From contig JAUJOR010000001.1 in NCBI GenBank assembly GCA_030447525.1, forward strand, positions 299,466 through 363,465: 64,000 nt of DNA, written 5' to 3'. The notes below the pieces were generated by a model, which did no database searches, had not been told where the DNA came from, and saw only the letters and a program-made list of their open reading frames with translations. The DNA comes from Chloroflexota bacterium. GTDB taxonomy: Bacteria; Chloroflexota; UBA11872; UBA12225. Below are positions 20,560-62,539 of this stretch, one piece after another. Every line of letters starts with the position of its first letter. Position 1 is the first letter of the stretch. The position numbers and the translations under genes are program-made.

Positions 20560-20695
20560 TCAGGTCTCAGGCGTCAGGCGTATGTTTGCACAAGCCACTG
20601 GTACGGCAGTGACACGGTCTAACTCCCGCTCAACGTGCCGTGCGTCGCCGTGCCGACGTGGTCAGAGTACACTCTACGCTCAACGACGCCCCCGG

Positions 20696-20727
20696 ACGAA
20701 GTGACGCACGGACGAAGTGACGCACGG
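20696..20727 (+). repeat. Perfect tandem direct repeat, 2 x 16 bp (GACGAAGTGACGCACG), ending 9 bp before the GT2 start codon
   Basis: It is read directly in the sequence and overlaps the SD region (GGAGC) of the GT2 gene. Confidence 0.7.
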
Positions 20728-20736
20728 AGCAAGGTC

Positions 20737-22523: not shown

Positions 22524-24641
22524 TCAGGGCTTGGTGCGCACGAAGACGAGAAAGGCCCCGGACTGGTGGGCCACCTCATAGGCATCTTCCAGGTAGCTGT
22601 GGACGATCCTCCCCAGCGTGGGATCCCAGAGGAACAGGGCCAGGACATCGATGCGGGGGTAGCCGGCGATCTGCCCGTCAAAGTCGGTGATGCCCCGCTG
22701 GTCGAGAAGGAGGAGGTGCCCCCAGAAGGTGTCCTGGTCGATGTAGTGCTGCTCTCTGGTGTAATAGGCGACGTCGCGCGAGGCGACGTAGGGCTCGTCC
22801 GGACGCAGGATGGTATCCAGATAGGTGGCCGTCTCACGCTGCCCGGAGACGCCGTAATTGTACGCCGTAGAGTAGGTCGCCCGCGCCTGGGCACCGTTCA
22901 CCCCCCAGCTCCAGGAGAGTGTCAGCAACAGGCCGAGGATGGCCAGCTGCCGCGGGAGGTGGTAGCGCCCCAGGGCGGCGCCGAGGACGAGAAAGGCGAA
23001 GCCGAGGGCCGCCGGCCAGACGAGCAGGGGGAGGACGAAGTCGTAGCCCTGGAACAGGACGTAGCGATCCCCGACGAAGGTGACGAAGTAGCCGGCCATG
23101 CCGGCCAGCACCACGCCATACACCGGCAGCTCCCACCACGCCAGGGAGGGGACGTAACGGGCCAGGAAGTAGGCCAGTCCCACGGCGCAGAACGGCATCA
23201 TGCTGATGTGGTACTTGGGAAAGCTGGCCGCCAGCTTGATGAGGTAGGCCAGGCCGATGACCCCGCCGCTCAGGAGCACGAAGTCCAGCGGTCGCCCCCC
23301 CCAGGAGTGACCGGTGCCCGGCAGCCGTCGCAGCCGCCGCCACAGGGCGACGAACGGCTGCCCCACCAGGTCCACGGTGCGGGAAAGGGAGGCCCAGGCG
23401 AACAGTCCGATGGCGTACGGCGAGACCCACAGGGCGACGTAACTCACCATGTCCAGCAGGATACGGGGGTTCTCGCGCCAGGTCCCGGAGCTCCCGGCGG
23501 CGTCTCGCAGCTGGAGATCCAGGATGCGGAAGGGGAGAGCGAAGGGCATGCCCAAGGCGAGACAGACGCCCCACCAGGTCACCAGGAAGAGGCCGGCGCC
23601 GCCGAAGGCGACGATCGGGGTGTCCACCAGCAGGCGCCACGGGCGCCAGGGGTGCGTCGCCAGCAGCCGGTAGAGCGCGGCCGCGGCCACTAAGGCCAGC
23701 GATGTGGTCATCTTGGCCCACAGCGAAAGGGCAAAGGTGAACGTAGCCAGCCCCAGCAGTGTCCAGGTCACCGGGCTGCGCAGGGGCCGATTGGAGCGCA
23801 AGAGCAAGACGTAGACGAACGCCAGCAGGGCGATGGAGGCGACCAGAACGGTACCGTCGATGTCCAGCAGCAAGGCGCTCTGGATGACGAACGGATTGGT
23901 GACGTACAGCGCCGTCCCAGCGGCGGCGAAGATGGGGGCAGCCCGTGTCTGGCGCCACAGGACGACCGTGGCCGTGGCGAAGACGAGAAGGGCCGCCACG
24001 GCGTTACAGATGAGCCCCACCGAGCGTGCCACCGTCTCCGACTCGCCCCACTGGCGAAAGGCCAGGCCCAGGACATAGACGTACAGGGGCGGGTGCCACA
24101 AGGCCCAGTTGAAGCGCTGGGAAAAGTCGCCCGGCGTCTCGGTCTGCATGTGCCCGACGTTGGACAGGGGGATGCCTCTCTCGGCCACGGCCTGCCCGGC
24201 AAAGGCAAAAGCGGCCTCGTCGTAGACGTATGGCTTGCCGAGCTGGGGCTGCGCGAACCACCAGGCGATCACAAAGGCCCCGGCCACGATGCCCAGGGCG
24301 ACCACCCAGCCGGCGAGCGTGGCCAGGGCGCTCCCCTGGAGCACCCGAGCCGGCCCTCGCCCGGCGCGCCCTGCGGGGGCGCCGGCGGGGCGGGGGGCAC
24401 CAGCCGGACGCTCAGGGGGAGACGCCTCCCAGCCGGCCGGTCCCGGCACGGCGCCCTCATGGTCGAGCGCCGGAAGGTCGAGCGTCCCGCCCACGGAGAC
24501 CGGCCCCGGCTGCTTCGCCCGGTGCCTCGGTCGGAGCCGGCCCGGCGGCCCAGGTGGCGTTTGCGCGAGATCGGCGTCTGTGGTGGTCGTCACACCTGGG
24601 TAGCCCGTTCGGCAAGGGGGCGGCGACGGGTATGGTACCAA
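22524..24641 (-). CDS. Polytopic membrane glycosyltransferase, ArnT/PMT (GT39/GT83)-like, with an approximately 100-aa Pro/Ala-rich cytoplasmic N-terminus
   Basis: It has more than 12 TM helices and a PMT_2-like N-terminal loop. It is adjacent to the Nudix and GT2 genes. Confidence 0.65.
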   Translation of the reverse strand: MVPYPSPPPCRTGYPGVTTTTDADLAQTPPGPPGRLRPRHRAKQPGPVSVGGTLDLPALDHEGAVPGPAGWEASPPERPAGAPRPAGAPAGRAGRGPARVLQGSALATLAGWVVALGIVAGAFVIAWWFAQPQLGKPYVYDEAAFAFAGQAVAERGIPLSNVGHMQTETPGDFSQRFNWALWHPPLYVYVLGLAFRQWGESETVARSVGLICNAVAALLVFATATVVLWRQTRAAPIFAAAGTALYVTNPFVIQSALLLDIDGTVLVASIALLAFVYVLLLRSNRPLRSPVTWTLLGLATFTFALSLWAKMTTSLALVAAAALYRLLATHPWRPWRLLVDTPIVAFGGAGLFLVTWWGVCLALGMPFALPFRILDLQLRDAAGSSGTWRENPRILLDMVSYVALWVSPYAIGLFAWASLSRTVDLVGQPFVALWRRLRRLPGTGHSWGGRPLDFVLLSGGVIGLAYLIKLAASFPKYHISMMPFCAVGLAYFLARYVPSLAWWELPVYGVVLAGMAGYFVTFVGDRYVLFQGYDFVLPLLVWPAALGFAFLVLGAALGRYHLPRQLAILGLLLTLSWSWGVNGAQARATYSTAYNYGVSGQRETATYLDTILRPDEPYVASRDVAYYTREQHYIDQDTFWGHLLLLDQRGITDFDGQIAGYPRIDVLALFLWDPTLGRIVHSYLEDAYEVAHQSGAFLVFVRTKP

Positions 24642-40443: not shown

Positions 40444-40884
40444 CTACGAGGTCCCGGAGTGCAGCGGATTCTCCCAGCGCAGGTCAGAGAACCGGGCGAA
40501 GTCGCCGTCGGTGGAGCAGAGGACGAGGCCGTGCTCGATGGCCAGTGCTGCAAGGTGGGTATCTGGTACCAGGTTCGCGCCCGCGCCCTGGCGCCGAAAC
40601 AGCAGGTCCAGGGTGGCGCGGTGGCGGTCGGTCGGCTGCGGGACCCACACGGGCGGGCAGTCGAGCCACTCCTCCACCTGGCCCCAGGCCCCGGCGACGG
40701 GCTGGGGTCGCTCGAAGACGCGCGGGTTGGATACCAGGCGCACGAACGCCAGGAGGCTGGGCCAGGGCAGCCCTACCGGTGCCACCCCGTTCAGCCGCGC
40801 GTCGAGCCAGGCCCGCGCGGCGGGGTGCTGCGGGACCGTGGTGACATGCGCGTAGACCAACAGGTTTGCATCCACCAGGATCAC
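40444..40884 (-). CDS. vapC: PIN-domain ribonuclease toxin VapC
   Basis: The GTG start overlaps the vapB TGA in a GTGA arrangement. The N-terminus is (M)ILVDANLLVYAHV, and the PIN acidic residues fall in the D5, ...DTHLAALAIEHGLVLCSTDGDFARF pattern. Confidence 0.75.
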   Translation of the reverse strand: MILVDANLLVYAHVTTVPQHPAARAWLDARLNGVAPVGLPWPSLLAFVRLVSNPRVFERPQPVAGAWGQVEEWLDCPPVWVPQPTDRHRATLDLLFRRQGAGANLVPDTHLAALAIEHGLVLCSTDGDFARFSDLRWENPLHSGTS

Positions 40885-41129
40885 CGGAAGGTCTCCCCTT
40901 CCGCGGCGGCCAGAGCCGCCGCGACGTCGTCCAGGCTGCCGACGAGGCAACGGCCGAGCGATACGGTAGCGGTGCGGTAGGGTCTCCTTGGTCGCGCCGG
41001 CGCCATCATCTGCTGCAGCCCGTAGCGCAGGGCCTCGTTCACCGCCTGCTTCAAGCTGAGGCCACGGCCCTCGCGGACGCGATCGAGGAGGGCCGCCACG
41101 TCGTCGTCGAGCGTCAGCGTCGTTCTCAC
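40881..41129 (-). CDS. vapB: VapB-family antitoxin (ribbon-helix-helix / DUF2191-like)
   Basis: It is 82 aa (MRTTLTLDDDVAALLDRVREGRGLSLKQAVNEALR...) with a GTG start. It lies immediately upstream of and translationally coupled to vapC. Confidence 0.7.
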   Translation of the reverse strand: MRTTLTLDDDVAALLDRVREGRGLSLKQAVNEALRYGLQQMMAPARPRRPYRTATVSLGRCLVGSLDDVAAALAAAEGETFR

Positions 41130-41142
41130 AGGTCCAAGGATA

Positions 41143-41174
41143 CATCAAGACATCGATCAGATGATGTCTTGATG
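41143..41174. promoter_or_regulatory. 12-bp inverted repeat CATCAAGACATC-N8-GATGTCTTGATG, 14 bp upstream of the vapB start; candidate VapB autoregulatory operator
   Basis: It is read directly in the sequence, within the divergent vapB/dprA promoter region. Confidence 0.4.
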
Positions 41175-41314
41175 ACTATCCTCGCTTGGAAGAGCAGGAC
41201 GTGACCCCTGTGGCGCGTTGACCACCGCCATCACCAGGGCCCGAACAACAGCGTCCGAATGATCGAAGGAGGCGCCGAGCACAGGGCTGGCGGGGTCGAT
41301 CGGGCGGGGCTACC

Positions 41315-41451
41315 ATGAGTCCCCGCATGGACGGCATTGCGGAGAGCCGGTACGAGCGGGAGCCGGTGGAGCCCCCGGTGGCGCCGCCACCGGGGGGGCG
41401 CCTCATAGACGACGACGAGCGGGGCTTCTGGGTGGCCTTTAACCGCACCCC
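41315..41451 (+). pseudogene. dprA: dprA 5' fragment (codons 1 to about 46) severed from the rest of the gene by the IS insertion
   Basis: The fragment MSPRMDGIAESRYEREPVEPPVAPPPGGRLIDDDERGFWVAFNRTPG joins in frame to the segment beginning at 43149 (...VGAARFRRLLARFG) once the IS and one copy of CCCCGG are removed. Confidence 0.6.
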
Positions 41452-43148
41452 CGGGGCCTGTTGCCAAAGTCGGGTATGGTGGTCAGGAGGAGCACGGTGC
41501 GGGGTACGCGGGCGCCCCGTGCACGCGACGGGAACGGCCGCTGGCCCGACCGGAGCTCGAACCGGGGACAGGCCCGCTTGAGAAGGGGGGGAGGGCCCAA
41601 CGCCGCACCCCCATGGCCGGGCTGGGGCGCGCCGTTGGGCCAGCTTCTTGACGTCGTACGCGATGGCGCTGCCCAGCGCCTGGATCAGCACCTTGTCTCG
41701 CCCCCGACACTGCGCCCGCCGCAGCCCGTGACGGTCCTTCAGTTCGGCGTTGGCCGTCTCGACCCAGTACGCGCGGGCGCGCCGGCTGCGCTTGGCGGGT
41801 GGCGTGCGGAGATAGGCGACGACTCGGTCGCGCAGTCCCCCATCGTCCGGGCGCACGAGGGTGCGGGCGGCCGCCGGGTCGCAGCACTGCGCCTTGACCG
41901 GGCACGCCCCGCAGACCTTCGGCCGCCCGCGGTAGATCAGGCCACCGGCCGCCCCGGCAGTGCGCGAGGAGCCCTGGCGGGTGAGGAGCCTGCCCGGTGG
42001 GACACCGATAGCGATTAGCGATCGGCGCGAACTCGTACACGAAGCGGTCGGCAGAGTAGTCACCCCGGTCGCTCATGGTGCTGTGGGGCGGGATGCTCGC
42101 CCGGATGCCCTGCTGCTCCAGCGCCACGTAGTTGGCGTAGGTCCCGTACTTGGTATCCGCCACCACTTCGGCCACCGTACGCCCGGTCGTGCCTCGATGC
42201 TCCTTGAGCAGCCGGTCCAGCAGGTGCTCGTCGGCAACCTCGCCCGGAGTCACGTCCAGCGCGGTGATGAGACGCGCCCGCCCGCCGTCCACGCCGACGT
42301 GCGCCTTGTAATAGAAGGCGTAGGGGACCCCTCGCGCTTGACCAGCCCCGCGTCGGGATCGGTGCGACTGGTCACCAAGGCGTTCACCGGCCCCTGGTCC
42401 CCGTTGGGCACGTCCTCCGGACCGGCCACGTGCAGCGACGGGCGCGCCGCCGCGCCCGCCGTGAGGCCACCGGCCGAGTCCGGCGCCGGCTGCTCCCCCT
42501 CGCCGGGAGGGGCCGCTGGCGGCGTGGGATCGGAGACGGGATCTCCTGCCACACCGTCGCGACGTACCCGGCCGCGCTCGGCAGCTGAGTGAGCAGCGCC
42601 TGCGCGCCGGCCGACCCAAGACTGGCATTGGCCTTGACCAGCGTGCTGTCCACGTAGAGGACGTCGCCCCGCACCAGGCCGGCCCGCTCGCACTGCCGCA
42701 CCACCTCGGTGAAAGCCGCCTGGTACACGGGCAGGCCGAAGCGCGCCCGCGCCTTGGACAGCATCGAGTGGTCCGGCGGCGTCTCGTCGAGGTCGTACCC
42801 CAAGAACCAGCGGAAGGCCAGGTGCAGGCGCGCCTCCTCGGCCAGCCGCCGCTCCGACGTGATGCCGTAGAGGTACCCGAGCAGCATCAGCTTGAACAGC
42901 ACCACCGGATCGACCCCCGGCCGGCCGGTGTGGCTGTAGAACCGCGCCGTCAGCCGCGCACAAAGCTGAGGTCGAGCGTCCCCGATGCGCGCAGCAAGTG
43001 GTCGCTCGGGACCTGCGCTTCTAGCGAGAACTCGTAGAAGCGCTTCGGCGTGAATTCCTTACGGCCCAACATCGTGCCCCACCTCGAACAGGGGAGCCAC
43101 CATCCTACTCAGACCTCGGCCGGTCCGGCCAGAGTTTGGCAACAGGCC
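41452..43148 (-). mobile_element. IS1182/IS5-family insertion sequence (1697 bp) with terminal inverted repeats GGCCTGTTGCCAAA / GGCCTGTTTGCCAAA and flanking 6-bp direct repeats CCCCGG
   Basis: The inverted repeats lie at 41452-41465 and 43134-43148. The target-site duplications lie at 41446-41451 and 43149-43154. Excising the element precisely restores a continuous dprA reading frame. Confidence 0.75.
41470..43072 (-). pseudogene. IS1182/IS5-family DDE transposase inactivated by frameshifts (three reading-frame segments)
   Basis: The N-terminus MLGRKEFTPKRFYEFSLEAQVPSDHLLRASGTLDLSFVRG is followed by a stop then a shift. It continues in another frame as RLTARFYSHTGRPGVDPVVLFKLMLLGYLYGITSERRLAEE (DUF772 / InsH N-terminal domain). 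The middle segment, in a second frame, is YKAHVGVDGGRARLITALDVTPGEVADEHLL. The C-terminal segment, in a third frame, is CGACPVKAQCC...AYWVETANAELKDRHGLRRAQCRGRDKVLIQALGSAIAYDVKKL. There is a 1-nt deletion at CGCGGCTGACG, where CGCCGGCTGACG is expected. Confidence 0.7.
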
Positions 43149-47431: not shown

Positions 47432-47682
47432 CTAGATCCTCTCCCACGAGGGACGCGGCACTGCGCCGCCGCGGGACAAGCGGTACGCACCCGGCCGCTG
47501 CCCACGCCCGGACGGCGACCCCATGCCGCATAATGCACTATCGGCACAGGTCCCGGCAACTACAGATCGTTGTATCGGTCCCTGGCTGCATGGGCCCCTC
47601 GAGGTGGCCACGACTCCAGCCGAGGGATGAGACGTGTGGCGATCCATGCACCGGCCAGTCACAGGCGCACGGCAGGAGCGAT

Positions 47683-48453
47683 ATGGCGGACGGCAAGCTG
47701 CGGGGAAAGACGGCGTTGGTCACAGGGGCCGGCTCGGGCATCGGCGAGGCCATCGCGATGCTCTTCGCTGCCCAGGGGGCCGGCGTGGCTGTCGTGGACT
47801 TTGACCCAACAGGGGGGGAGCGCACGGCGCAGCGGATCGCCGACGCCGGGGGCAACGCCACGTACATCCTGGCCGACGTCTCGCGGGCGGGCGACGCCGA
47901 GCGTATGGTAGCTCAGACCCTGGCGCGCTTCGGTCGCCTGGACATCTTGTGCAACAACGCCGGCATCGGCGTTGCGGCCGTGTGCCATGAGACCAGCGAG
48001 GCCGATTGGGACCACACCATGGCCGTCGACCTCAAGGGGGTGTTCCTGGGCTGTAAGTACGCCATCCCGCACATGCTCCGGCAGGGCCGGGGCGTGATCT
48101 GCAACACCGCGTCCGTTGCCGGGCAGGTAGGCGTGCCCAACCGAGCGGCGTACTGCGCCGCCAAGGCGGGGGTCTTGGGGCTGACGAAGTCCATTGCCAT
48201 CGACTACGCCGAACAGGGGATCCGTTGCAACGCCCTCCTCCCTGGGACGGTGGACTCCCCATGGATTGGAAAGATCCTGGCCCAGCAGGCCGATCCACAG
48301 GGGCAGCGCAAGCTGATGGAGGCCCGCCAGCCGCTGGGGCGCATGGGCCGCCCGGAGGAGATTGCCGGGGCGGCCCTCTTTCTGTGCTCGGACGACGGCG
48401 CCTTTGTCACGGGCACCGGACTGGTGATCGACGGGGGCTTGACCGCCCGCTGA
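47683..48453 (+). CDS. Short-chain dehydrogenase/reductase (SDR) family oxidoreductase
   Basis: The motifs are TGAGSGIGEA (cofactor-binding), NNAG, the catalytic residues S-Y-K (YCAAK) and PG. The ATG at 47683 is preceded by AGGAG. Confidence 0.85.
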   Translation: MADGKLRGKTALVTGAGSGIGEAIAMLFAAQGAGVAVVDFDPTGGERTAQRIADAGGNATYILADVSRAGDAERMVAQTLARFGRLDILCNNAGIGVAAVCHETSEADWDHTMAVDLKGVFLGCKYAIPHMLRQGRGVICNTASVAGQVGVPNRAAYCAAKAGVLGLTKSIAIDYAEQGIRCNALLPGTVDSPWIGKILAQQADPQGQRKLMEARQPLGRMGRPEEIAGAALFLCSDDGAFVTGTGLVIDGGLTAR

Positions 48454-48605
48454 CTCAAGCCCGCACAGCCCTCGGTCATCAGTCGGCAGCGCTCACGACC
48501 ACAGCCGGCCATGGACCATCGACCGCGTGGCCCGGCGCCTCTCGCCAGGGGCACCGGCCCGTCCTGGGGGCAGGGAGCAGGCCGTTATGAGCCTGCTCTA
48601 AGCAC

Positions 48606-49661
48606 CTAGCGGGGGAGCGGGAGCTTGATTGGGCGCCCCTCGCGAGCCGACTGCTCGGCGGCGAAGACGATCTCGTACGTCTTGGCATCCTCCGCGATCA
48701 TCAGCCGGGGCTGCCGGTCGTTCAGAATGGCGTCTACGAGGTCATCGATCTCGCCGGGGAAGGGGTGATGGGTCACCTCCGGCGTGTCCGGCAAGATGGT
48801 GGGGAACTGGGCCCACCCTTCCAGCCCTGGGTCGAGGTAGGTGGTGCGGAAGCGGTCGTTGATCAGCGTCCCCTTGGCCCCGTGGAGTCGGACGTTAAAG
48901 GTGTACTTGACGTTCCCTTCCAGGACGCAGCCGACCTTGCCGATGGCCCCATTGGCGAAGCGGATCAGCGTCAGGATGGTGGGGTCCCACTCCATCACGT
49001 CGGTGAAGTTCCCGGCGTAGGCGAACACCTCGGTGGCTTCGGCACGGACGAACTGGCGGATGGCGTCCACAGCGTGGCAGCCGGCGGCGGGGAGGGCCGA
49101 GCCACCCTTCTCCTTGGTCTTGACCCAGGGGTAGCCGGGGTACCACTTCTCCCAGTTGCCAGAGAAATAGTCGCACTCGGCGTAGTAGATATCGCCGAAG
49201 AAGCCGGCGTCGATCATCTGGTGCACGGACTGGAAGTAAGGGCTCCAGTGCAGCTCGAAGCCCCCCTGACTCTTCACGCCGGCCTTTTCAATCGCCCGTT
49301 CCACCCGCCGCAGGCCCTGCAGATCGAGAGCGACGGGCTTCTCGATCAGGACGTGCTTTCCGGCTTCAGCGGCGGCCACGCCTTGCTCTACGTGCTCGTG
49401 GTTCATCGAGCACACGGAGACGACGTCCACGCGGTCGTCTTTGAGGAGCTCCTGGTAGTCCGTGTAGATGCGGGCATCGCTGAGGCCATGGGTGTCCCTC
49501 GCCCGCTCGGCATTCACACGCTGGTGGCTGGCTAAGGCCACCACACGACAATGCCTGTTTTGTACATACGCCTTGATGTGCTCGCCGGCCACCCAGCCAA
49601 TGCCGATGATGCCGACGCCGAGGGTTCGGGCCTGATCGTTGGTCATGGGGGAAGTCGCCAT
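48606..49661 (-). CDS. Gfo/Idh/MocA-family NAD(P)-dependent oxidoreductase
   Basis: The N-terminal Rossmann fold is LGVGIIGIGWVAGEHIKAY, with a C-terminal alpha/beta domain. The ATG at 49661 is preceded by GAAGGTGA. Confidence 0.85.
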   Translation of the reverse strand: MATSPMTNDQARTLGVGIIGIGWVAGEHIKAYVQNRHCRVVALASHQRVNAERARDTHGLSDARIYTDYQELLKDDRVDVVSVCSMNHEHVEQGVAAAEAGKHVLIEKPVALDLQGLRRVERAIEKAGVKSQGGFELHWSPYFQSVHQMIDAGFFGDIYYAECDYFSGNWEKWYPGYPWVKTKEKGGSALPAAGCHAVDAIRQFVRAEATEVFAYAGNFTDVMEWDPTILTLIRFANGAIGKVGCVLEGNVKYTFNVRLHGAKGTLINDRFRTTYLDPGLEGWAQFPTILPDTPEVTHHPFPGEIDDLVDAILNDRQPRLMIAEDAKTYEIVFAAEQSAREGRPIKLPLPR

Positions 49662-49723
49662 AAGGGTGTTCACCTTCACAATGGAGTCTCTTGGGCCCGT
49701 TGGGGTGCCGGCAGCGAAGGAAA

Positions 49724-49753
49724 TCGGAACGCCGTAGTGCCCGGTAGTGCCCG
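49724..49753 (+). repeat. Tandem repeat, 3 x 10 bp (GTAGTGCCCG), in the divergent intergenic between the Gfo-family gene and the GT1 gene
   Basis: It is read directly in the sequence. Confidence 0.85.
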
Positions 49754-50039
49754 GTAGTGCCCGGCCGGTGGCACGATGGACCATTTTCCCACCGGCTGCG
49801 CCCCGCGGCCGGCCGCGACCATGGGGCATGAATACCGGTGATCTTCAGTGCAGTCGTCCTGACGGCTCGCCGTCACCATCCCGGATGAGAATGGGCCATT
49901 CTCTAACCAGTGTGGCCGTTATGGTGCACCGGCGGAGGCGCCGCCGCAAGCCGCGCCCGGCCCCAGGCCGGTTGAGGGCGCCGACGATGGGCAATGGAGT
50001 ATAACGACGGGCCGTGGCGATGACCGCTGAGGGCTGCGG

Positions 50040-51617
50040 GTGAGGGTCCTGGCCGTCGTCAGCGGCCAGAAGTGGCTGGGGGGACTGACGATTCACACGG
50101 CGCTCCTGTGCCGTGAGCTGGAGCGCCTGGGGCACCAGGTGGCGGTCGTGTCCATTGGAGAGGACGCCGTGGTCGACCTCTTCCCCCACACCCGTACCCG
50201 CTATGGTCCCCGGACGGGGGCTCGCCCGGACGGTGGGCCGGCGATGGATGGCCCGGCCGGCCGGACCGATCTCCCGCAGCCGCCCCAGCGGGGGGAGGAC
50301 TACGTATTCCGCTACGAGGTGGTGGCGGATGCGGCGCGCTACCTCCCGCCGGGACGGCTGGCGGTGCGCCGGGCACTGGCTCCGGTGGCGCGCCTGGGGA
50401 TGGCCGTGGTCGTCCCGCCGGCCGACCGCTCGCGGGCCCCGCTGCGGCAGGCGCGGGGCCTGGCCGCCTCCCTGGCTCGAGGTCTGGGGGCGGCGCTGGA
50501 CGCCGGGCTCAGCGGGGGGGCCGCCGAGGCGCCCTTTCTGGCTCGCCTCCTGCTGCACACGGACGAGGAGGATCTGCGCCGCCTGGAGGAGATCCGGCGC
50601 TGGTTCCAGCCGGATGTGGAGTACGCCTGCGACCTGGCCCTCGTCCCGATGATGGCCCGCCTGCAGGATCTCTCCATACCCCTGGTGGCGGCGGCCCAGG
50701 GCTTTGAGATCGTCCAGCGCCGGGGCGTGGGGCTGTTGACTGGGCTGCACGCCGCCCGCCATCGGCTTGATCTGGTGCTCTCTGGCTCCAGAGCCAACGT
50801 GGACGAGAACCTCCGGCAACTCCCCCTGTTCCAGGATGGGGCATTGCCGGTGCGGGTCGTCCCCTACGGCGTCTCCCTGGACGGGGGCTGGGAGATGAGC
50901 CGCGCGCGGGCGGTCGAGCGCGTCCGGGATCTGGAGCGCCAGCTGACGCCGGACCAGCGGGGGGCCGGCGGGCTGTGGGGGAGCGGAGACGAACCGCCCC
51001 CATTCATCGCCACCTCCTTTTCCCGCATTGACGTGGAGAAGGGCACCGATCTGGCCCTGCACGCCCTGTCTATCCTGCGCCGCCAGGGAGTCCCGGCACG
51101 TCTGTGGATCGCCGGCAACGCCATGCCCGGCTCAGCCTACCTGGACGTCCTGCGCCAGAAGATCCGCTTGTTGGACCTGGGGCACTGCGTCAGCTTGATC
51201 GGCACGCTCCGTGACCAATCGGACAAGATCGCCCTGTTGCGGGCCAGCGATGCCTTTGTCGCCGGGTTTATTCGCTCCGAGCCCTTCGGCCTGGTGTTGA
51301 CTGAGGCCTTTGCCACCGAGCTGGCGGTGGTCGCCCCGGCCACCGGGGCGGCGCCGGAGCTGATGGCGTACGTCGGGGACACGTCCACGCTCTACCCGCC
51401 CAATGACACCGGAGCGCTGGCCGAGCGGCTCCAGGGCCTGCACCTGGACCCGGCCCGCCGGGCGGCCCTCGCCCACCGCCAGCGTCAGGCCTTTACCACC
51501 CACTTCAATGCCACGGAGATGGCCAGGGTCACCGCCGCCGAGTTCGAGCGGGCGATCCAGGGGCGAGGTGGCCGTCCCCACGGCTCCAACGGACGCCGGC
51601 GGCCGGCAGGCTGCTAG
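50040..51617 (+). CDS. Large family 1 (GT4-type, GT-B fold) glycosyltransferase
   Basis: The C-terminal GT1 signature is ...SRIDVEKGTDLALHA...FIRSEPFGLVLTEAFATELAVVA.... It is 525 aa with an extended N-terminal acceptor domain. Confidence 0.8.
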   Translation: MRVLAVVSGQKWLGGLTIHTALLCRELERLGHQVAVVSIGEDAVVDLFPHTRTRYGPRTGARPDGGPAMDGPAGRTDLPQPPQRGEDYVFRYEVVADAARYLPPGRLAVRRALAPVARLGMAVVVPPADRSRAPLRQARGLAASLARGLGAALDAGLSGGAAEAPFLARLLLHTDEEDLRRLEEIRRWFQPDVEYACDLALVPMMARLQDLSIPLVAAAQGFEIVQRRGVGLLTGLHAARHRLDLVLSGSRANVDENLRQLPLFQDGALPVRVVPYGVSLDGGWEMSRARAVERVRDLERQLTPDQRGAGGLWGSGDEPPPFIATSFSRIDVEKGTDLALHALSILRRQGVPARLWIAGNAMPGSAYLDVLRQKIRLLDLGHCVSLIGTLRDQSDKIALLRASDAFVAGFIRSEPFGLVLTEAFATELAVVAPATGAAPELMAYVGDTSTLYPPNDTGALAERLQGLHLDPARRAALAHRQRQAFTTHFNATEMARVTAAEFERAIQGRGGRPHGSNGRRRPAGC

Positions 51618-51718
51618 ACTCGGCGCTAGTGGTCCAAGGGCGTCCAGGGCGCACATTCGAGCAGCTCTCACCTGGAGCATCGACGAACGACCTTTCCATA
51701 GGTGCATAGGAGCTCGAC

Positions 51719-52732
51719 ATGCGCGCCGTGCTGCCCCATCTCGCCGCCAGACCGTTTCCCGCGCTGCGTCGCGGCGTCCTGGAGACGCTCCAGGTCAACC
51801 TGGGGTACCGCTGTAACTTGCAGTGCGTCCACTGCCACGTGAATGCCGGCCCCCGACGCATGGAGATGATGGGGCGGGAGACGGCCGAGCAGGTGATCGC
51901 CTACCTGCGCCGGGCAGGGATTAGGACGCTGGATCTGACCGGCGGTGCCCCGGAGCTCAACCCGCACTTTCGCTCCCTCGTGGAGAGGGCCCGTGCCCTT
52001 GGCGTGCGCGTGATTGACCGCTGCAACCTCACCGTGCTGTGGGAGCCGGGCCAGGAAGACCTGGCGGCGTTCCTCGCCGCCAACGGCGTGGAGGTGGTGG
52101 CCTCCCTCCCCTGCTACCTGGAGGAGAACGTCGACCAGCAGCGCGGGCGGGGTGTGTTCGAAGGGAGCGTCCAGGGATTGCTCCGCCTGAATGCGCTGGG
52201 CTATGGGCGGCCCGGCTCGGGCCTCATCCTGGACCTGGTGTACAACCCCATCGAGCCGCAGCTCCCGCCGCCACAGGCGGAGCTGGAGCAGGACTACCAC
52301 GACGAGCTGGAGCGGCGCTTCGGGATCGTATTCAACCGCCTCTACACGCTGGCCAACATGCCCATCCAGCGCTTTGGGAGCCTGTTGCTCTCTACGGGTC
52401 GCTTCGACGAGTACATGGCCCTGCTCCAGGGAGCGCATCGGGACGAGAACCTGGATACCGTGATGTGCCGCTCGCTGATGAGCGTGGACTGGCAGGGCCA
52501 CGTCTACGATTGTGACTTCAACCAGATGCTCGGACTCCCCCTGACCCTCGAGGGGGCGGACGAGGAAGCAGGGGGCGGGCACGGGAGTGGCCGGAGCGGC
52601 CGGAGCGGTCGGCGGGTGCACCTCACCGAGCTGTCGAGTGCCCAGCTGGAAGGCAACGTCATCGCCGTCGCGGGGCACTGCTACGGCTGCACCGCCGGGC
52701 AGGGGAGCAGCTGCAGCGGCGCGCTGGCCTAG
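51719..52732 (+). CDS. Radical SAM / Cys-rich domain protein of the ArsS-like (TIGR04167-type) family
   Basis: The N-terminal cluster LQVNLGYRCNLQCVHCHVNAGPRRMEMM is the CxxxCxHC variant typical of this family. A C-terminal Cys-rich segment ends AGHCYGCTAGQGSSCSGALA. Confidence 0.75.
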   Translation: MRAVLPHLAARPFPALRRGVLETLQVNLGYRCNLQCVHCHVNAGPRRMEMMGRETAEQVIAYLRRAGIRTLDLTGGAPELNPHFRSLVERARALGVRVIDRCNLTVLWEPGQEDLAAFLAANGVEVVASLPCYLEENVDQQRGRGVFEGSVQGLLRLNALGYGRPGSGLILDLVYNPIEPQLPPPQAELEQDYHDELERRFGIVFNRLYTLANMPIQRFGSLLLSTGRFDEYMALLQGAHRDENLDTVMCRSLMSVDWQGHVYDCDFNQMLGLPLTLEGADEEAGGGHGSGRSGRSGRRVHLTELSSAQLEGNVIAVAGHCYGCTAGQGSSCSGALA

Positions 52733-52739
52733 GGTGCCC

Positions 52740-53438
52740 CTAGGCGAACCCCAGGCGGCGCTCTTTCAGGGAGATGTACCCTTCTCGCCCCGGGCCGGGC
52801 CGCCCGACGACGACGTGGTCGAGCACCTCGATGTCCAGCAGCCGTCCGGCGTCGGCGGCGTCTGTGGTGATGCGGACGTCCTCGGGGGAGGGAGTGGGAT
52901 CGCCGCTGGGGTGATTGTGGACGACGATCACGGCGGCGGCGTTCTCCCGGATGGCGTCACGGAACAGCTCGGCCACGCGGACGGTGCTGGCGTTCAGCGT
53001 TCCGCGGTACACCTCGCGCACGGCCATGACGTGGTTCTTGGTGTTGAGCAGGACGACCCGCAGGTGCTCTCAATCCAGCAGGGTCATCTCGGACGCGACG
53101 AGATGGTAGACGTCACGCGGGGAATGGATCTCCGTGCGCTGCGCCGGCTCTAGGGCCGTCAGGCGGCGCCCCAGCTCGAGGGCGGCTTGCACCTCCGCCG
53201 CCTTGACCGGGCCGACGCCGGCCAGGCCTTTCAGCTCTACGGTGGAAGCCTTGGCCAGGCCGGCCAGGCCGGCCAGGCCGCCCAGGCGGGCCAGCGCCCG
53301 GTTGGCCACGTCCAGGGCGCTTTCCCGGGACCGGCCCGAGCTGCCGGTGCGCCAGATGATGGCCAGCAGCTCGCCGTTGCTGAGGTGCTCCGGCCCGTAG
53401 CGGGCGAGGCGCTCCCGCGGGCGCTCGCTGCTGGGCAT
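52740..53438 (-). pseudogene. radC: radC (JAB/MPN-domain DNA-repair-associated protein) interrupted by an in-frame TGA at 53058-53060
   Basis: The N-terminal part ends ...HSPRDVYHLVASEMTLLD-TGA. It continues in the same frame as [26 protein letters not shown]...[15 protein letters not shown], which is the JAMM motif. I verified frame continuity by hand. Confidence 0.7.
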
Positions 53439-53679
53439 GTCCCGGATCAAGAGGTACTCCCGACCGGTGGCCGCCGGGGCGCCGCTCGGCCCTGCCCCGT
53501 TCACTGAGCGGGCATCTGGTCCGGGGCCGGTGGCCTGCCCGGACGTTTCAGTAGTGGTGTTCGGGCTCGTCCCTCTGGGGACTGCGGGGGCTCTGGGGGC
53601 TCTGGGGGCTGCTCGCCCCGGTTTGGGAGCAGACCGGCGGGAGCTGGCGCGCAGCACGGCGGAGGACGTCGCTCGGGGC

Positions 53680-55480
53680 ATGTCAGTCGGTATCGTACCC
53701 GGACGGCGGCCGGCGTACCATCAGCCTCCGTCCCTCCACCCCGCTCTGAACAGGCGGCCCGGCGGCGAGCCGGGAGGGGAGGGGGCACCGAGAGCGGCCC
53801 TCTACCGGCACCGCTTCCGCCTCCTGGCCGGGCTGACGCTCCTGGCCTTGCTCCTGCGCATCTGGGCCCTCGACCAGTCGCCCCTCGGCCTGGATCCGGG
53901 CGAAGCCTCCATTGGCTACAACGCCTACTCCGTCTTGCGCACCGGCCGAGACGAGTACGGCTAGCCGTGGCCCCTGACCTTCCGGGCTTTTGGCGAGTAC
54001 AAGCGCCCGGCCTACGTCTACGCCGCCATCCCAGGTATCGCCCTCTTGGGCCCGACGCCGGCCGGCGTCCGCATCGCGGCCGCCGTCGCCGGGACGCTGT
54101 CGGTTCCGGCGCTCTACGCCGTGGCCACGCTCCTGCTGCGGAGCTGGCGGGGGGCGCTGGTGGCGGCGACCATGCTCGCCCTCTCGCCCTGGCACCTCCA
54201 GTTCACCCGGGCCGCTCGAGAGGCCAGCCTGCTCGTCCTGGCCATCCTCTTGCTCGCCGGGGCCTTGCTGCGGGCGTGGCACGCGCCTCCCGCCGAGCGC
54301 CCCGGTCGCCCGGCCGGCTCCAACCTCCTGTACGTCGGCGCCGCCCTGGCCTTTCTCCTGGCGGTGTACAGCTACCCCGGTGGCCTCCTCTTCACCCCGC
54401 TGCTCGTGCTCGTCCTGGTATGGGCCTACGGGAGCCGGGTGCGCCGCCGGCCGCGAGCGTGGCTGGGAGCCGCCCTGGCCATTGCCGCCCTGGGTCTGGT
54501 GCCCCTGGTGGTACAGCTCACCGATGGCCGGGCGCGGGCGGGCCTCAGCCAGGCCTCGATCTTCAACTTCCCGGCGGTGCGTCAGCTGGCCGAAGCCCGC
54601 GTCGCACGCGACCGTCGGGAAGGTGCCCCGCGGCTGCTCAACAGCTCGATGATGGTGGCCCTGCGCCAGGCGGTCAACGCCTATCTGACTCACTTCGACC
54701 CGACCTATCTCTTCACCCGCGGGGACGCCGAGTGGCGCCACCACTCCAGCGACGCCGGCCAGCTGTACTTGTGGGACGTGCCCCTCCTGGGGATTGGCCT
54801 GGTGAGGGTCGCCCGAGGCTGGCGACGCCCGGCGGCGATGCGCGCCATCGGGGCCTGGCTGCTGATCGGCCCGTTGCCGGTGGCGTTCGCCGAGAACGCC
54901 CCCCACGCCGTGCGGTCGATCGTCATGCTCCCGGCGTGGTACCTCCTGGCGGCCGCCGGTGTGTCCCCCCCCTGTGGCGCTGGCTCCGGCGCCGGGGCTA
55001 TGAGCGAGACTGGTTGCTGCTTCTCGTCCTGAGCCTGGCCTTCTCTATACCTTCTACCGCTACTACCCCATTGAGCACGCCCCATCCTGGCAAAGCGGGA
55101 TGCTGGAGGGCTTTCGCGCGGCGCAGGCGGAGGTAGACGCCGGACGCTACCGGCGCGTCGTCATCCCCCAGGAGATGTCTCCTTCGTACATCTACGCCCT
55201 CTATGCCAATGGCTATGACCCGCACTCCTACCTGACCCAGGGCGGCAGTGTCGTCGACCCCAGCGGCCCGTTCTTCCCTGCACCCGGCCCGCTGCAGTTT
55301 CGCCCCTACGAGGTGCGGGTGGTGGACTGGCGCACCGAGCCGCGGCTCCCGGAGGTGCTCTACGTCTTGGAAGCCTCGAACCGTCTACCCCCGGGGCTGG
55401 AGGTGGTCAAGGTGGTCAAGGTGGTCAAGGGCGTGGGGGGCCGGGATAGGCTGCAGCTCGTGGCCGCCCCGGGCGGGTGA
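53680..55480 (+). pseudogene. PMT/ArnT-like (GT39 family) membrane glycosyltransferase carrying an in-frame TAG at 53962-53964 and at least two frameshifts (a C8 tract at about 54964-54971, and near 55080)
   Basis: The first segment is ...LYRHRFRLLAGLTLLALLLRIWALDQSPLGLDPGEASIGYNAYSVLRTGRDEYG. A TAG stop follows, where PMT_2 proteins normally have a basic residue. The next segment is PWPLTFRAFGEYKRPAYVYAAIPGIALLGPTPAGVRIAAAVAGTLSV.... The C-terminal domain continues in two other frames after CCCCCCCC. Confidence 0.6.
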
Positions 55481-60234: not shown

Positions 60235-61059
60235 TCAAGGACGGCGGGCGACGAAGATGGCCCGGGGCGACGTGCGGGTAAGCGGGTCGCCCCGGTAGGT
60301 GCCATATGTCGCCTCCACGGCGTACCCCTCCCGCTCCAGCAGGGCCCGCACCTGATCCGGCTCCGCCAGGCGCAAGCGGTAGGTAAACTGGGCCAGCCGG
60401 CTGGCCGGGGCGTCGCTGAGAGGTTCGGCGGCGTAGTAGCGCACCTCCGAGACGCCCTGCCGGCGTGCGGGATCGTAGGTGTAGTCCTTGATGCGCAGTA
60501 CGGTCTGGCCCTGCCAGGGCAGGGCGAGGCGCTGGGTGATTCCGGTCTCGTTCTGCCGGTCGTCGTCGTTCGGTGGGAACACGTCCAGGACGAAGCGCCC
60601 TTCCGGGGCCAGGTGGCGGGCGACGGCGCGCAGGCAGCTCGCCTGGCCCGCCTCGTTGTCCAGGAGCCAGAAGGAGTTGTAGGCGATAAAGACGAGGCCG
60701 AACTGGCGCCCAGGGAGATCAAAGGCGGCCATGTCCGCTTCCACCCAGTCCAGTCGGGCGGCCACGGACGGGGGGAGGCGAGCGCAGCGCGCCCGGGCGC
60801 GTTCCAGCATCCCGGGGGCGCGCTCCAGGCCGGTGACCCGGTGTCCCTTACGCGCCAGGGCGATGGCAACACGGCCGCTCCCGGCGGCGAGCTCGAGGAC
60901 GGCGCCGCCGGAGGTGCCGGCCAGCTGGTGCCAGAAGCCGAGCTCTGCCCCCCGGCAGGCGGGATGCTCCAGGTCATACAGGCGGGCGATCGTCCCCCAG
61001 TCTTCCTGCGAGGGAGGGTCGCTGCTCTGGTAGACTCGGCGCCCAGCGCCCGGGCGCAT
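60235..61059 (-). CDS. Class I SAM-dependent methyltransferase
   Basis: Motif I is VLELAAGSGRVAIALARKGHRVTGLE, and the post-I acidic residue and motif II (LVFIAYNSF) are present. The start is uncertain (61059 or 61116). Confidence 0.7.
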   Translation of the reverse strand: MRPGAGRRVYQSSDPPSQEDWGTIARLYDLEHPACRGAELGFWHQLAGTSGGAVLELAAGSGRVAIALARKGHRVTGLERAPGMLERARARCARLPPSVAARLDWVEADMAAFDLPGRQFGLVFIAYNSFWLLDNEAGQASCLRAVARHLAPEGRFVLDVFPPNDDDRQNETGITQRLALPWQGQTVLRIKDYTYDPARRQGVSEVRYYAAEPLSDAPASRLAQFTYRLRLAEPDQVRALLEREGYAVEATYGTYRGDPLTRTSPRAIFVARRP

Positions 61060-61117
61060 GGCCAGGCGCACCGTACGTTCTGACGCGCTGTTCTTGGAGG
61101 AGGACACAAAGGACATG

Positions 61118-62539
61118 GCCGACGTCCGACCTTTCCCTGGGCTGCGCTTCGATCCGGCGCAGGTCGACCTGGGCGCCGCCGTGTGTCCGCCGTTTGACGT
61201 CATCTCTCCGGCAGAGCAGAGAGCGTATCACGCGCGCGATCCGCACAACATCGTCCGCGTGGAGCTGGGAATGGGGCCGGCCGATCCCGACGCCCCGGGG
61301 AATCGGTACGCCGCGGCCGCCGCCGCCCTGGCGGCCTGGCGCCGGGAGGGGACGTTGCGCCCGGACGCCACGCCGGCGTTCTACCTCTACGAGCATGCCT
61401 TCCAGCACCAGCACCGCACGGTCGTGCGGCGCGGGCTGTTCGTGGCCGGACGTCTCCATGAGCCATCCGCCACGGGCGTCCTGCCCCACGAGGACACGCG
61501 TAAGGGGCCGATCACGGACCGCCTGGCCCTGCTCCGCGCCACGGCGACGAACGTCAGCCCCCTGTGGCTGCTGTACGAGGACGCCGACAAATCGGTGGCC
61601 CGATCCCTGGAGAGGGGCTGGGACGCGCCGGTGGCCGCCGTGGCTGAGGGCGAGGGGGAGCGGCACAGCCTGCGAGTCGTCGACGATCCGCGGACTCTGC
61701 GTGCCGTGGTGGCCGCCTTTGCCGCGCGTCCGCTGTACATTGCCGACGGCCACCATCGCTACAAGACGGCGCAGGTCTACCGTGACGAGCGCAGGGGGAC
61801 AAGCTCAGGGGGCCGGAACGGCCAGCCGGACGGCCAGCCGGACGCCGGCTACGAGTTCGCCCTCATGCTCCTGGTGCCACTGGACGATCCCGGGCTGATG
61901 GTGCTGCCGACACACCGGCTGGTGCGCCACTCCGGGCGACCCCTGGAGGACGTGCGCCGGGCCCTGGCCCAGTGGCTGACCCTGGAGCCGTTACCCCCGC
62001 CCGGTGGGGGAACCGACGCGACCGCGACCGCCCTGACGCGCGTCCTGGACGCCGCCGGGGTGGCGGGGCACGCCTTTGTGCTCCTCGAGCGCGAGGGGGC
62101 TTGGCTGCTCAGGTTGCGCGAAGACGTAGACTGGCGTAGCCACCTCCCGGCAGGACACGGGGCAGCCTGGCAAGGACTGGACGTGGCCGTGCTCGACGCC
62201 CTGGCCATCCGTGGCGCCTGCGGCATCCGCGCCGAGGCGGAATCGGCTGGCGCCGGGGAGGCGAGTCACACCCCGCCCTCGCCGGATCTGACTCCCCGTC
62301 TCCCCACAGCGGGCTCGCCCGACCGCCTGGCCTACGTTTCCCAGGCCGTCGACGCGGTGGAGGCCATCCGCCGCGGCGAGGCCGACCAGGCCTACCTCCT
62401 CAACCCCACGCGTGTGGAGCAGGTCTGCGCCGTCGCCGCCGCCGGCGACCGCATGCCCCCCAAGTCTACGTTCTTCTATCCGAAGCCGGTCACGGGCCTG
62501 GTGCTGCACTCCCTGGAGGGCACGCGTCCGGCGCCGTGA
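61118..62539 (+). CDS. DUF1015-domain protein
   Basis: The conserved N-terminus is MADVRPFPGLRFDP...VCPPFDVIS, with ADGHHRY in the core, and the C-terminus is STFFYPKPVTGLVLHSLE. The ATG at 61118 is preceded by GGAGGAGG. Confidence 0.75.
   Translation, partial: ADVRPFPGLRFDPAQVDLGAAVCPPFDVISPAEQRAYHARDPHNIVRVELGMGPADPDAPGNRYAAAAAALAAWRREGTLRPDATPAFYLYEHAFQHQHRTVVRRGLFVAGRLHEPSATGVLPHEDTRKGPITDRLALLRATATNVSPLWLLYEDADKSVARSLERGWDAPVAAVAEGEGERHSLRVVDDPRTLRAVVAAFAARPLYIADGHHRYKTAQVYRDERRGTSSGGRNGQPDGQPDAGYEFALMLLVPLDDPGLMVLPTHRLVRHSGRPLEDVRRALAQWLTLEPLPPPGGGTDATATALTRVLDAAGVAGHAFVLLEREGAWLLRLREDVDWRSHLPAGHGAAWQGLDVAVLDALAIRGACGIRAEAESAGAGEASHTPPSPDLTPRLPTAGSPDRLAYVSQAVDAVEAIRRGEADQAYLLNPTRVEQVCAVAAAGDRMPPKSTFFYPKPVTGLVLHSLEGTRPAP

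What the first reader, a model, noticed from the sequence alone, without database searches (positions are those of the whole stretch)
50040..52732. ArsS-like radical SAM/Cys-rich enzyme encoded next to an unusually large GT1 glycosyltransferase, with no arsM partner in view
The radical-SAM protein has the uncommon CNLQCVHCHV cluster and a C-terminal ...HCYGCTAGQGSSCSGALA tail. These are characteristic of the arsenosugar-biosynthesis ArsS family, which makes 5'-deoxyadenosyl adducts rather than abstracting H. Here it follows a 525-aa GT-B glycosyltransferase, separated by a 101-bp gap, and sits in a region flanked by other envelope-glycosylation genes (a GT39 remnant, MurT/GatD). A 5'-deoxyadenosyl-derived or otherwise modified sugar handed to the GT1 would be a plausible function. 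I know of no characterised system of that kind. No ArsM-like methyltransferase is adjacent.
Basis: partly seen in the sequence, partly recalled or inferred. Interest (0 to 1): 0.55.

Follow-up and report, generated by a model that had tools for sequence, protein, structure and literature searches.

The report
Orphan arsS gene beside unrelated glycosyltransferase
The radical-SAM gene is a genuine, intact member of the known arsenosugar enzyme family ArsS, but it lies next to the large glycosyltransferase only because of a one-gene insertion in this Chloroflexota genome, so the proposed two-gene pathway is not supported.

Summary
A 525-aa GT-B glycosyltransferase (50040-51617) is followed after 101 nt by a 337-aa radical-SAM protein (51719-52732). 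That protein scores 436.9 bits on the ArsS model TIGR04167 (cut-off 300) and keeps every family-invariant residue. No ArsM-like gene lies in the 64-kb window.

The pairing is not conserved.
- In the closest relatives, the glycosyltransferase stop codon is 20-30 nt from the convergent RadC gene, with the same flanking genes and no arsS.
- None of about 25 distinct loci of this Chloroflexota-only GT4 family contains arsS.
- None of 80 genome loci of arsS relatives has this glycosyltransferase within 10 kb.
- The glycosyltransferase's conserved partner is the divergently transcribed Gfo/Idh/MocA oxidoreductase.

arsS is therefore a lineage-specific insertion of about 1.15 kb. Its nearest homologues sit in five further, unrelated contexts.

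A link between ArsS and glycosyltransferase-like genes is already catalogued. It involves other families, TIGR04282 and TIGR04283, found in about half of the proteobacterial loci. Both are absent here.

Verdict: a new member of a known kind, with low interest.

The parts
51719..52732 (+). arsS: intact Cys-type radical SAM/DUF3641 protein of the ArsS family (337 aa)
   Evidence: TIGR04167 scores 436.9 bits against a cut-off of 300. Pfam finds Radical_SAM plus DUF3641. All invariant columns of a 23-sequence alignment are retained, including C32/C36/C39, C102, C132, C250, C265 and C321/C324/C332. The codon for C332, which is Sec in selenoprotein members (GxxU; PMC13188914), is TGC.
51586..52739 (.). 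Lineage-specific inserted segment of about 1.15 kb. It comprises a short 3' extension of the GT ORF, the 101-nt spacer with an AGGAG Shine-Dalgarno-like site 6 nt before the ATG, the arsS ORF, and 7 nt before the RadC stop codon.
   Evidence: Comparison with L092. Similarity ends at the GT C-terminal 'GRPH' codons and resumes at the RadC stop codon, and L092 has only 20-25 nt there. DNA similarity to other arsS loci is confined to the ORF, 51718-52732.
50040..51617 (+). GT4-type retaining GT-B glycosyltransferase of a Chloroflexota-specific family of 500-545 aa. It is a neighbour of arsS, not a demonstrated partner.
   Evidence: Pfam Glycos_transf_1. 45 homologues with E <= 1e-77 were found, and all those that carry a name are Chloroflexota. 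The EX7E motif (E414...E422) is conserved. The AlphaFold model has pLDDT 82.7. Its best PDB matches are sucrose-phosphate synthase, BshA, MshA, glycogen synthase and PimA. The extra length comes from low-confidence insertions at residues 60-75 and 123-159.
48606..49829 (-). Gfo/Idh/MocA oxidoreductase, transcribed divergently from the GT. It is the GT's conserved neighbour.
   Evidence: Pfam. It lies directly upstream of the GT in nearly all GT-family loci, down to 40% GT identity.
52740..53681 (-). RadC/UPF0758 gene, convergent with arsS, carrying an in-frame TAG at 53070-53072
   Evidence: It is 91% identical to the intact RadC of L092, which directly abuts the GT there.
60235..61203 (-). 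Class I SAM methyltransferase, not ArsM
   Evidence: Pfam Methyltransf_25/11/31. The best NCBIfam hit is the daptide-type methyltransferase at 129 bits, below its cut-off, and no ArsM model matches at E <= 1e-5. A similar gene sits at the same syntenic position in a relative without arsS.

Best explanation
The window comes from a Chloroflexota genome. The gene at 51719-52732 is an intact, Cys-type orthologue of ArsS.

Mechanism, inferred by homology with the characterised cyanobacterial enzyme:
1. The [4Fe-4S] cluster, bound by C32/C36/C39, reductively cleaves SAM.
2. The 5'-deoxyadenosyl radical is not used to abstract a hydrogen atom. It adds to the arsenic of dimethylarsenite.
3. The arsenic-centred radical returns the electron to the cluster.
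4. The product is 5'-deoxy-5'-dimethylarsinoyl-adenosine, the entry compound of arsenosugar synthesis.
5. The conserved C-terminal Cys motif (C321, C324, C332; the last is selenocysteine in some members) probably holds the arsenical. That step is inference.

Location, shown here. The gene lies where it does because a segment of about 1.15 kb carrying only this ORF was inserted between the stop codons of two convergent genes, the GT4 glycosyltransferase and RadC. That neighbourhood is otherwise syntenic: SDR, Gfo/Idh/MocA, GT, RadC, PMT, MurT, GatD, NFACT, methyltransferase.

Consequence, inferred. The glycosyltransferase is a resident gene whose conserved partner is the divergent Gfo/Idh/MocA oxidoreductase, so adjacency to arsS is an accident of insertion and not a pathway. 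The methylated arsenic substrate would come from an ArsM encoded elsewhere in the genome, or from the environment.
For: Family membership:
- TIGR04167 scores 436.9 bits against a cut-off of 300. The next-best models cover only the N-terminal radical-SAM core, at 54 bits or less.
- DUF3641 is present.
- All invariant residues are retained. Identity is 62-69% to the eight aligned homologues that have an ArsM-like gene complete and directly downstream, the same range as to unlinked ones.

Chemistry of the family: PMC13598754; bioRxiv 10.64898/2026.04.29.721666; bioRxiv 10.1101/2022.09.23.509062.

Insertion:
- L092 (GT 79%, RadC 91%, Gfo 89% identical) has SDR, Gfo, GT and RadC, with 20 nt between GT and RadC.
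- A JGI contig (GT 76%) has GT, RadC, PMT, MurT, GatD, NFACT and a methyltransferase, with no arsS.
- L081, L082, L083-85, L093 and the 20 metagenome loci L094-L113 contain no arsS.
- Similarity to other arsS loci stops at the ORF ends.

arsS is independent of the GT:
- 0 of 80 arsS genome loci have this GT within 10 kb.
- Five other contexts of the closest arsS homologues (69-75% identity) are all different.

The Gfo-GT pair is conserved down to 40% GT identity.
Against: - No arsM was found in 64 kb, and the rest of the 623,666-bp contig and genome could not be read. The source of the substrate is therefore unshown.
- Only the cyanobacterial enzyme has been assayed. 68 of 80 relatives also lack an adjacent ArsM-like gene, so the equivalog call may over-reach for some members.
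- GT and arsS are on the same strand. No consensus terminator or promoter was detected between them, so co-transcription is possible.
- The two genes just downstream, RadC and PMT, carry stops or frameshifts. This may reflect local decay or assembly errors in a metagenome-assembled genome.
Confidence: 0.78

Rival explanations
1. One reading: GT and ArsS form a two-gene pathway. ArsS makes a 5'-deoxyadenosyl- or ribosyl-derived compound, and the GT4 enzyme transfers or decorates it.
For: The genes are on the same strand, 101 nt apart, and no terminator-like site was detected between them. The ArsS family as a whole is often linked to glycosyltransferase-like genes: TIGR04283 in 43 of 80 loci and TIGR04282 in 39 of 80.
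Against: The adjacency is unique to this genome among all sampled relatives of either gene. In the nearest relatives the GT abuts RadC directly. The GT family exists and is conserved without arsS, and its conserved partner is Gfo/Idh/MocA. The GT is not TIGR04282 or TIGR04283.
Confidence: 0.05
2. The protein is structurally an ArsS-family enzyme but acts on a substrate other than dimethylarsenite. That could be another metalloid or chalcogen centre, or an unknown small molecule. Under this view the 'ArsS' name is over-propagated for orphan members such as the Chloroflexota ones.
For: Only 9-12 of 80 relatives have an ArsM-like gene next to arsS. Even those methyltransferases fall below every curated ArsM cut-off. 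Other frequent neighbours have no shown arsenic role: a DedA plus FAD disulfide-reductase fusion, a metallophosphoesterase, DUF547 and DUF3047. Six Chloroflexota-clade contexts show no arsenic gene at all. Some members are selenoproteins (PMC13188914).
Against: The score is well above the equivalog cut-off. Every invariant residue is shared with the ArsM-linked members, at 62-69% identity, with no sign of a separate subfamily. The C-terminal triple-Cys motif suits thiol binding of As(III).
Confidence: 0.14
3. The arrangement is an assembly artefact of a metagenome-assembled genome, with arsS wrongly joined between GT and RadC.
For: The two genes immediately downstream carry one and three disruptions. 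The exact ArsS protein was not found in the gene-position index, although a 100% identical database entry exists.
Against: Synteny is restored exactly on both sides of a single complete ORF, which chimeric joins do not normally produce. GC3 of arsS (0.89) matches its neighbours (0.84-0.91). GT and ArsS are both recorded on one 623,666-bp contig.
Confidence: 0.03

Closest known systems
ArsS of Synechocystis sp. PCC 6803 (NCBIfam TIGR04167, arsenosugar biosynthesis radical SAM (seleno)protein)
   Same: Same family by curated model. It shares the CX3CX2C cluster motif, the DUF3641 C-terminal domain and the conserved C-terminal Cys motif, so the same adenosyl-transfer chemistry to As(III) is presumed.
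   Different: In Synechocystis arsS is co-transcribed with arsM. Here no arsM lies within 64 kb, and the gene is a solitary insertion. This protein also has a Gly/Ser/Arg-rich insertion of about 17 residues (around 283-300), shared in variable form with its Chloroflexota-clade relatives. Its activity is untested.
The 'rSAM/selenodomain-associated' gene set: TIGR04167 with TIGR04283 (GT2-like) and TIGR04282 (DUF2064/CofC-like), both now named 'arsenosugar biosynthesis glycosyltransferase' by NCBIfam
   Different: The linked transferases are small (about 225-240 aa) and belong to GT2-like and CofC-like families, not to GT4. They follow arsS in 43 and 39 of 80 mostly proteobacterial loci. They are absent from this window and from the Chloroflexota-clade loci.
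Retaining GT4 glycosyltransferases with solved structures (sucrose-phosphate synthase 6kih, BshA 6n1x, MshA 3c4q, PimA 2gej)
   Same: The GT shares their GT-B fold, Glycos_transf_1 C-terminal domain and EX7E motif.
   Different: Sequence identity is only 13-18%. The N-terminal domain carries about 120-150 extra residues, partly predicted disordered. Donor and acceptor are unknown, and the family is confined to Chloroflexota in the searches made.
ArsL/ArsM arsinothricin pair
   Same: It is a radical-SAM enzyme that makes a C-As bond from SAM.
   Different: ArsL is non-canonical and generates a 3-amino-3-carboxypropyl radical. The window protein matches ArsS, and no ArsL model was among the 25 best of its 41 NCBIfam matches shown.

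Membership tests
ArsS (NCBIfam TIGR04167) | Whole-protein score above the curated equivalog cut-off | tested here: met
   436.9 bits against 300, residues 16-336 on model positions 2-303 of 303
ArsS (NCBIfam TIGR04167) | Radical-SAM CX3CX2C [4Fe-4S] motif | tested here: met
   C32, C36 and C39 are invariant in alignment A1. Pfam Radical_SAM scores 47.5 bits.
ArsS (NCBIfam TIGR04167) | DUF3641 C-terminal domain with the Cys-rich (or Sec) tail HC.GCTAG.GS.C | tested here: met
   PF12345 scores 174 bits over 134 of 134 positions. H320, C321, C324 and C332 are invariant. C332 is encoded by TGC.
ArsS (NCBIfam TIGR04167) | Genomic linkage to arsM, as in the characterised Synechocystis operon | tested here: not met
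   No ArsM-like gene in 64 kb by tblastn or by Pfam and NCBIfam scans. The rest of the genome could not be read. This feature is also absent in 68 of 80 relatives, so it does not define the family.
ArsS (NCBIfam TIGR04167) | Adenosylation of dimethylarsenite to 5'-deoxy-5'-dimethylarsinoyl-adenosine | not testable with these tools
   Needs an enzyme assay. The chemistry is known.
ArsS-associated transferase set (TIGR04282 / TIGR04283) | A TIGR04283 or TIGR04282 gene next to arsS | tested here: not met
   No hit in the window except generic GT2 similarity at 20635-21672, which scores 42.6 bits against a cut-off of 182 and lies 30 kb away.
SPASM/twitch peptide-maturase radical SAM enzymes | SPASM or twitch auxiliary-cluster domain, and a score above the cut-off on a maturase model | tested here: not met
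   Maturase models match only residues ~17-162, the radical-SAM core, at 54 bits or less against cut-offs of 265-725. Pfam finds no SPASM domain.
Conserved GT + ArsS gene pair (the proposed new system) | Adjacency conserved across relatives of either gene | tested here: not met
   0 of about 25 distinct GT-family loci contain arsS, and 0 of 80 + 5 arsS contexts contain the GT.
GT4-type retaining GT-B glycosyltransferases | Glycos_transf_1 domain, EX7E motif and two-Rossmann GT-B fold | tested here: met
   PF00534 scores 74.7 bits. E414 and E422 are invariant. The model has pLDDT 82.7 and Foldseek probability 1.00 to GT4/GT5 structures.

The most novel reading that the evidence does not exclude
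The Chloroflexota-clade ArsS proteins were seen here in six unrelated contexts, never with arsM, TIGR04282, TIGR04283 or any recognisable arsenic gene, and they carry a clade-specific insertion. They might be a stand-alone adenosyl-transferring radical-SAM enzyme working on a substrate other than ArsM-made dimethylarsenite. In this one genome the product might even be used by the upstream GT4 enzyme after a recent operon fusion.
Probability: 0.1. Interest if true: 0.55.

Novelty: new member of a known kind. Interest (0 to 1): 0.15.

Why it matters
As it stands it matters little. It adds a Chloroflexota example to a large, already named enzyme family, and it shows that a suggestive gene adjacency is an insertion accident.

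Two modest points are useful.
- arsS behaves as a solitary, relocating gene in Chloroflexota. That bears on how arsS counts in soil metagenomes should be read, because presence of arsS does not imply a local arsM-arsS operon.
- The 500-545-aa GT4 family, with its conserved Gfo/Idh/MocA and SDR neighbours, is an uncharacterised and phylum-restricted envelope or small-molecule glycosylation module. It could be studied in its own right.

Tried and rejected
- Exact look-up of the ArsS protein in the gene-position index found nothing. Context therefore had to come from homologues.
- I asked whether the methyltransferase at 60235-61203 is the missing ArsM. Rejected: no ArsM model hit, and a similar gene sits at the same syntenic position in a relative without arsS.
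- I asked whether the GT2 at 20635-21672 is the ArsS-associated TIGR04283. Rejected: 42.6 bits against a cut-off of 182.
- I asked whether the glyoxalase-family gene next to a 73% arsS homologue (L115) is an ArsI C-As lyase. Its matches (E <= 1e-5) were fosfomycin-resistance (Fos), glyoxalase I and a dioxygenase (HpaD) model, all below cut-off, and none was an ArsI model.
- I looked for a regulatory RNA, promoter or terminator in or around the insert. There was no Rfam match, no promoter consensus and no terminator between the genes.
- I looked for repeats or mobile-element scars at the insert boundaries. No similarity was found beyond the ORF, and there were no repeated flanks.
- A search for a solved ArsS structure found only distant radical-SAM cores.
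- An ArsS structure prediction and a third large protein search were not run, because they would not change the verdict.
Full report
**1. What is there**

The window is about 70% G+C. GC3-filtered ORF calling gives a clear gene map.

At the finding's coordinates there are two + strand genes:
- 50040-51617, 525 aa.
- 51719-52732, 337 aa, separated from the first by exactly 101 nt.
- An AGGAG Shine-Dalgarno-like site lies 6 nt before the second ATG.

The second protein:
- It scores 436.9 bits on NCBIfam TIGR04167, 'arsenosugar biosynthesis radical SAM (seleno)protein ArsS', whose cut-off is 300.
- All other radical-SAM models match only the N-terminal core, at 54 bits or less.
- Pfam gives Radical_SAM plus DUF3641.

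I aligned it with 22 family members. They include the eight genome loci where an ArsM-like gene lies complete and directly downstream, plus L043, where that gene is cut by the contig end. The protein keeps every invariant column. These include C32/C36/C39 (the ordinary CX3CX2C cluster motif), C102, C132, C250, C265 and the tail H320-C321-x-x-C324-T-A-G-x-G-S-x-C332. C332 corresponds to the GxxU selenocysteine of selenoprotein members (PMC13188914) and is TGC here.

One correction applies: the cluster motif itself is not unusual.

**2. The glycosyltransferase**

- Pfam finds Glycos_transf_1 in residues 321-482 and only a weak Glyco_transf_4 match at the N-terminus.
- A large protein search found 45 homologues with E <= 1e-77. 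Full-length members are about 450-545 aa (one is 713 aa), and all those that carry a name are from Chloroflexota.
- The family conserves the EX7E motif, E414...E422.
- An AlphaFold model built on that alignment (pLDDT 82.7, pTM 0.84) has a GT-B fold.
- Its best PDB matches are sucrose-phosphate synthase, BshA, MshA, glycogen synthase and PimA, at 13-18% identity.
- The extra length comes from insertions in the N-terminal domain, and residues 60-75 and 123-159 have low confidence.

It is thus a GT4-like retaining enzyme of a phylum-restricted family. It is not an aberrant one-off.

**3. Is the pairing conserved? No.**

*(a) From the GT side*

| Relative | GT identity | Gene order seen |
|---|---|---|
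| L092 | 79% | SDR, Gfo/Idh/MocA(-), GT(+), RadC(-); 20 nt between the GT stop and the RadC stop |
| JGI contig | 76% | GT, RadC, PMT, MurT, GatD, NFACT, methyltransferase; the window's order minus arsS |
| L081 | 76% | no arsS in the 371 nt after the GT |
| L093 | 70% | no arsS |
| L082 | 58% | no arsS |
| L083-85 | 55% | no arsS |
| L094-L113 (20 metagenome loci) | 38-76% | no arsS by tblastn |

- L092 is a close relative: its RadC is 91%, Gfo 89% and SDR 86% identical to the window's.
- About 18 distinct loci have at least 400 nt downstream of the GT.
- What is conserved next to the GT, down to 40% identity, is the divergently transcribed Gfo/Idh/MocA oxidoreductase, often with the SDR.

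*(b) From the ArsS side*
- 80 genome loci of relatives (57-66% identity, mostly Proteobacteria) have no homologue of this GT within 10 kb.
- The closest homologues (69-75% identity, at least two of them named Chloroflexi or Chloroflexota) lie in five further contexts, all different:
  - a molybdopterin oxidoreductase with FdhD;
  - a Phosphodiest-family gene with an MFS transporter;
  - DHDPS with a metallo-beta-lactamase-fold protein;
  - a PEP-utilising enzyme;
  - a glyoxalase-family gene.
- None of these contexts contains the GT, an ArsM-like gene, TIGR04282 or TIGR04283.

**4. Anatomy of the insertion**

Against L092, similarity ends in the last GT codons ('GRPH', about 51585) and resumes at the RadC stop codon (52740). 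L092 has 20-25 nt there, and the window has about 1,154 nt.

DNA similarity to every other arsS locus starts and stops at the ORF, 51718-52732. The 101-nt spacer matches nothing. No Rfam family, promoter consensus or terminator lies between the genes.

GC3 of arsS (0.89) is like that of its neighbours. The nearest homologues are of the same phylum. This fits relocation or transfer within Chloroflexota, not a recent import from a distant donor.

The two genes just downstream are damaged:
- RadC has an in-frame TAG where relatives have R or Q.
- The PMT_2/GT39-like gene has one stop and two frameshifts.

A split IS transposase lies 8 kb upstream of the GT.

**5. What the ArsS family usually sits with**

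In the 80 genome loci, the common same-strand neighbours are:

| Neighbour | Loci (of 80) |
|---|---|
| TIGR04283 GT2-like gene (259.8 bits, cut-off 182) | 43 |
| TIGR04282 CofC-like gene (199.1 bits, cut-off 134) | 39 |
| 734-aa DedA plus FAD disulfide-oxidoreductase fusion | 25 |
| Metallophosphoesterase-like gene (assigned by eye from the sequence; no NCBIfam match) | 12-18 |
| DUF547 (assigned by eye from the sequence; no NCBIfam match) | 11 |
| ArsM-like methyltransferase | 9-12 |
| DUF3047 (assigned by eye from the sequence; no NCBIfam match) | 7 |

NCBIfam already calls TIGR04282 and TIGR04283 'arsenosugar biosynthesis glycosyltransferase'. A radical-SAM plus glycosyltransferase association is therefore catalogued, but with different and much smaller transferases. 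Neither is in this window.

**6. Mechanism**

From the literature:
- ArsS uses the 5'-deoxyadenosyl radical as a group to be transferred. It adds the radical to dimethylarsenite to give 5'-deoxy-5'-dimethylarsinoyl-adenosine, in a redox-neutral reaction (PMC13598754; bioRxiv 10.64898/2026.04.29.721666).
- In Synechocystis it is co-transcribed with arsM, which supplies the substrate (bioRxiv 10.1101/2022.09.23.509062).

For the window protein this chemistry is inferred from orthology. The source of its substrate is unknown, because only 64 kb of the genome could be read.

**7. Verdict**

- The family call is right.
- The best description is an orphan arsS inserted into a conserved cell-envelope neighbourhood of a Chloroflexota genome: a new member of a known kind.
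- The remaining open point is whether orphan members such as this one really act on dimethylarsenite. I give the alternative-substrate reading about 0.1-0.15.

Noticed in passing
window 52740-53681 (-): RadC/UPF0758 has an in-frame TAG at 53070-53072 ('LLD*EHL'). The intact orthologues have R (L092, 91% identical overall) or Q (L081) at that position. This is either a pseudogene or a sequence error.
   Followed up: partly
window 53437-55480 (+): The PMT_2/GT39-like mannosyltransferase gene is broken by a stop at 53962-53964 and by two frameshifts near 54970 and 55045. It is intact (550-597 aa) in two relatives. Together with RadC, this makes two damaged genes directly downstream of the arsS insertion.
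   Followed up: partly
window 40444-42905 (-): A split IS transposase (DUF772 at 42384-42905, DDE_Tnp_1_6 at 41176-42063) and a PIN-domain ORF (40444-41148) lie just upstream of dprA.
   Followed up: no
window 47533-51617; loci L081-L112: The trio SDR, Gfo/Idh/MocA (divergent) and the 500-545-aa GT4 is conserved in Chloroflexota down to 40% GT identity. In L082 the GT instead follows plsY and hopanoid/polyprenyl genes. It is an uncharacterised, phylum-restricted glycosylation module.
   Followed up: partly
L081 5406-9533: In this relative (GT 76% identical) the Gfo-GT block is inverted relative to RadC, PMT, MurT, GatD and NFACT. The GT/RadC junction is therefore a recurrent rearrangement point.
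   Followed up: no
L087 12062-12137; L044 8829-9104: Extra fragments resembling arsS are present. One is a second copy of the 3' end in L087 (75% over 76 nt). The other is a second 5' fragment upstream of arsS in L044.
   Followed up: no
L070 3811-4941 and about 10 other proteobacterial loci: The ArsM-like genes directly downstream of arsS score best on the arsinothricin ArsM model NF040538 (366 bits, cut-off 500). They score only 122 bits on the arsenosugar ArsM model NF038099 (cut-off 400), so they fit no curated ArsM subfamily.
   Followed up: no
L067 10909-13113 and 24 other loci: A 734-aa fusion of a DedA/SNARE-like membrane domain with a MerA/lipoamide-dehydrogenase-like FAD disulfide oxidoreductase follows arsS in 25 of 80 loci. 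Its role is unknown.
   Followed up: no
window 22524-24641 (-) and 30291-33017 (+): A 705-aa ORF with strong coding signal has no Pfam match. A 908-aa protein has only a weak spermidine-synthase domain and lies next to AdoMet decarboxylase and an arginase-family gene.
   Followed up: no
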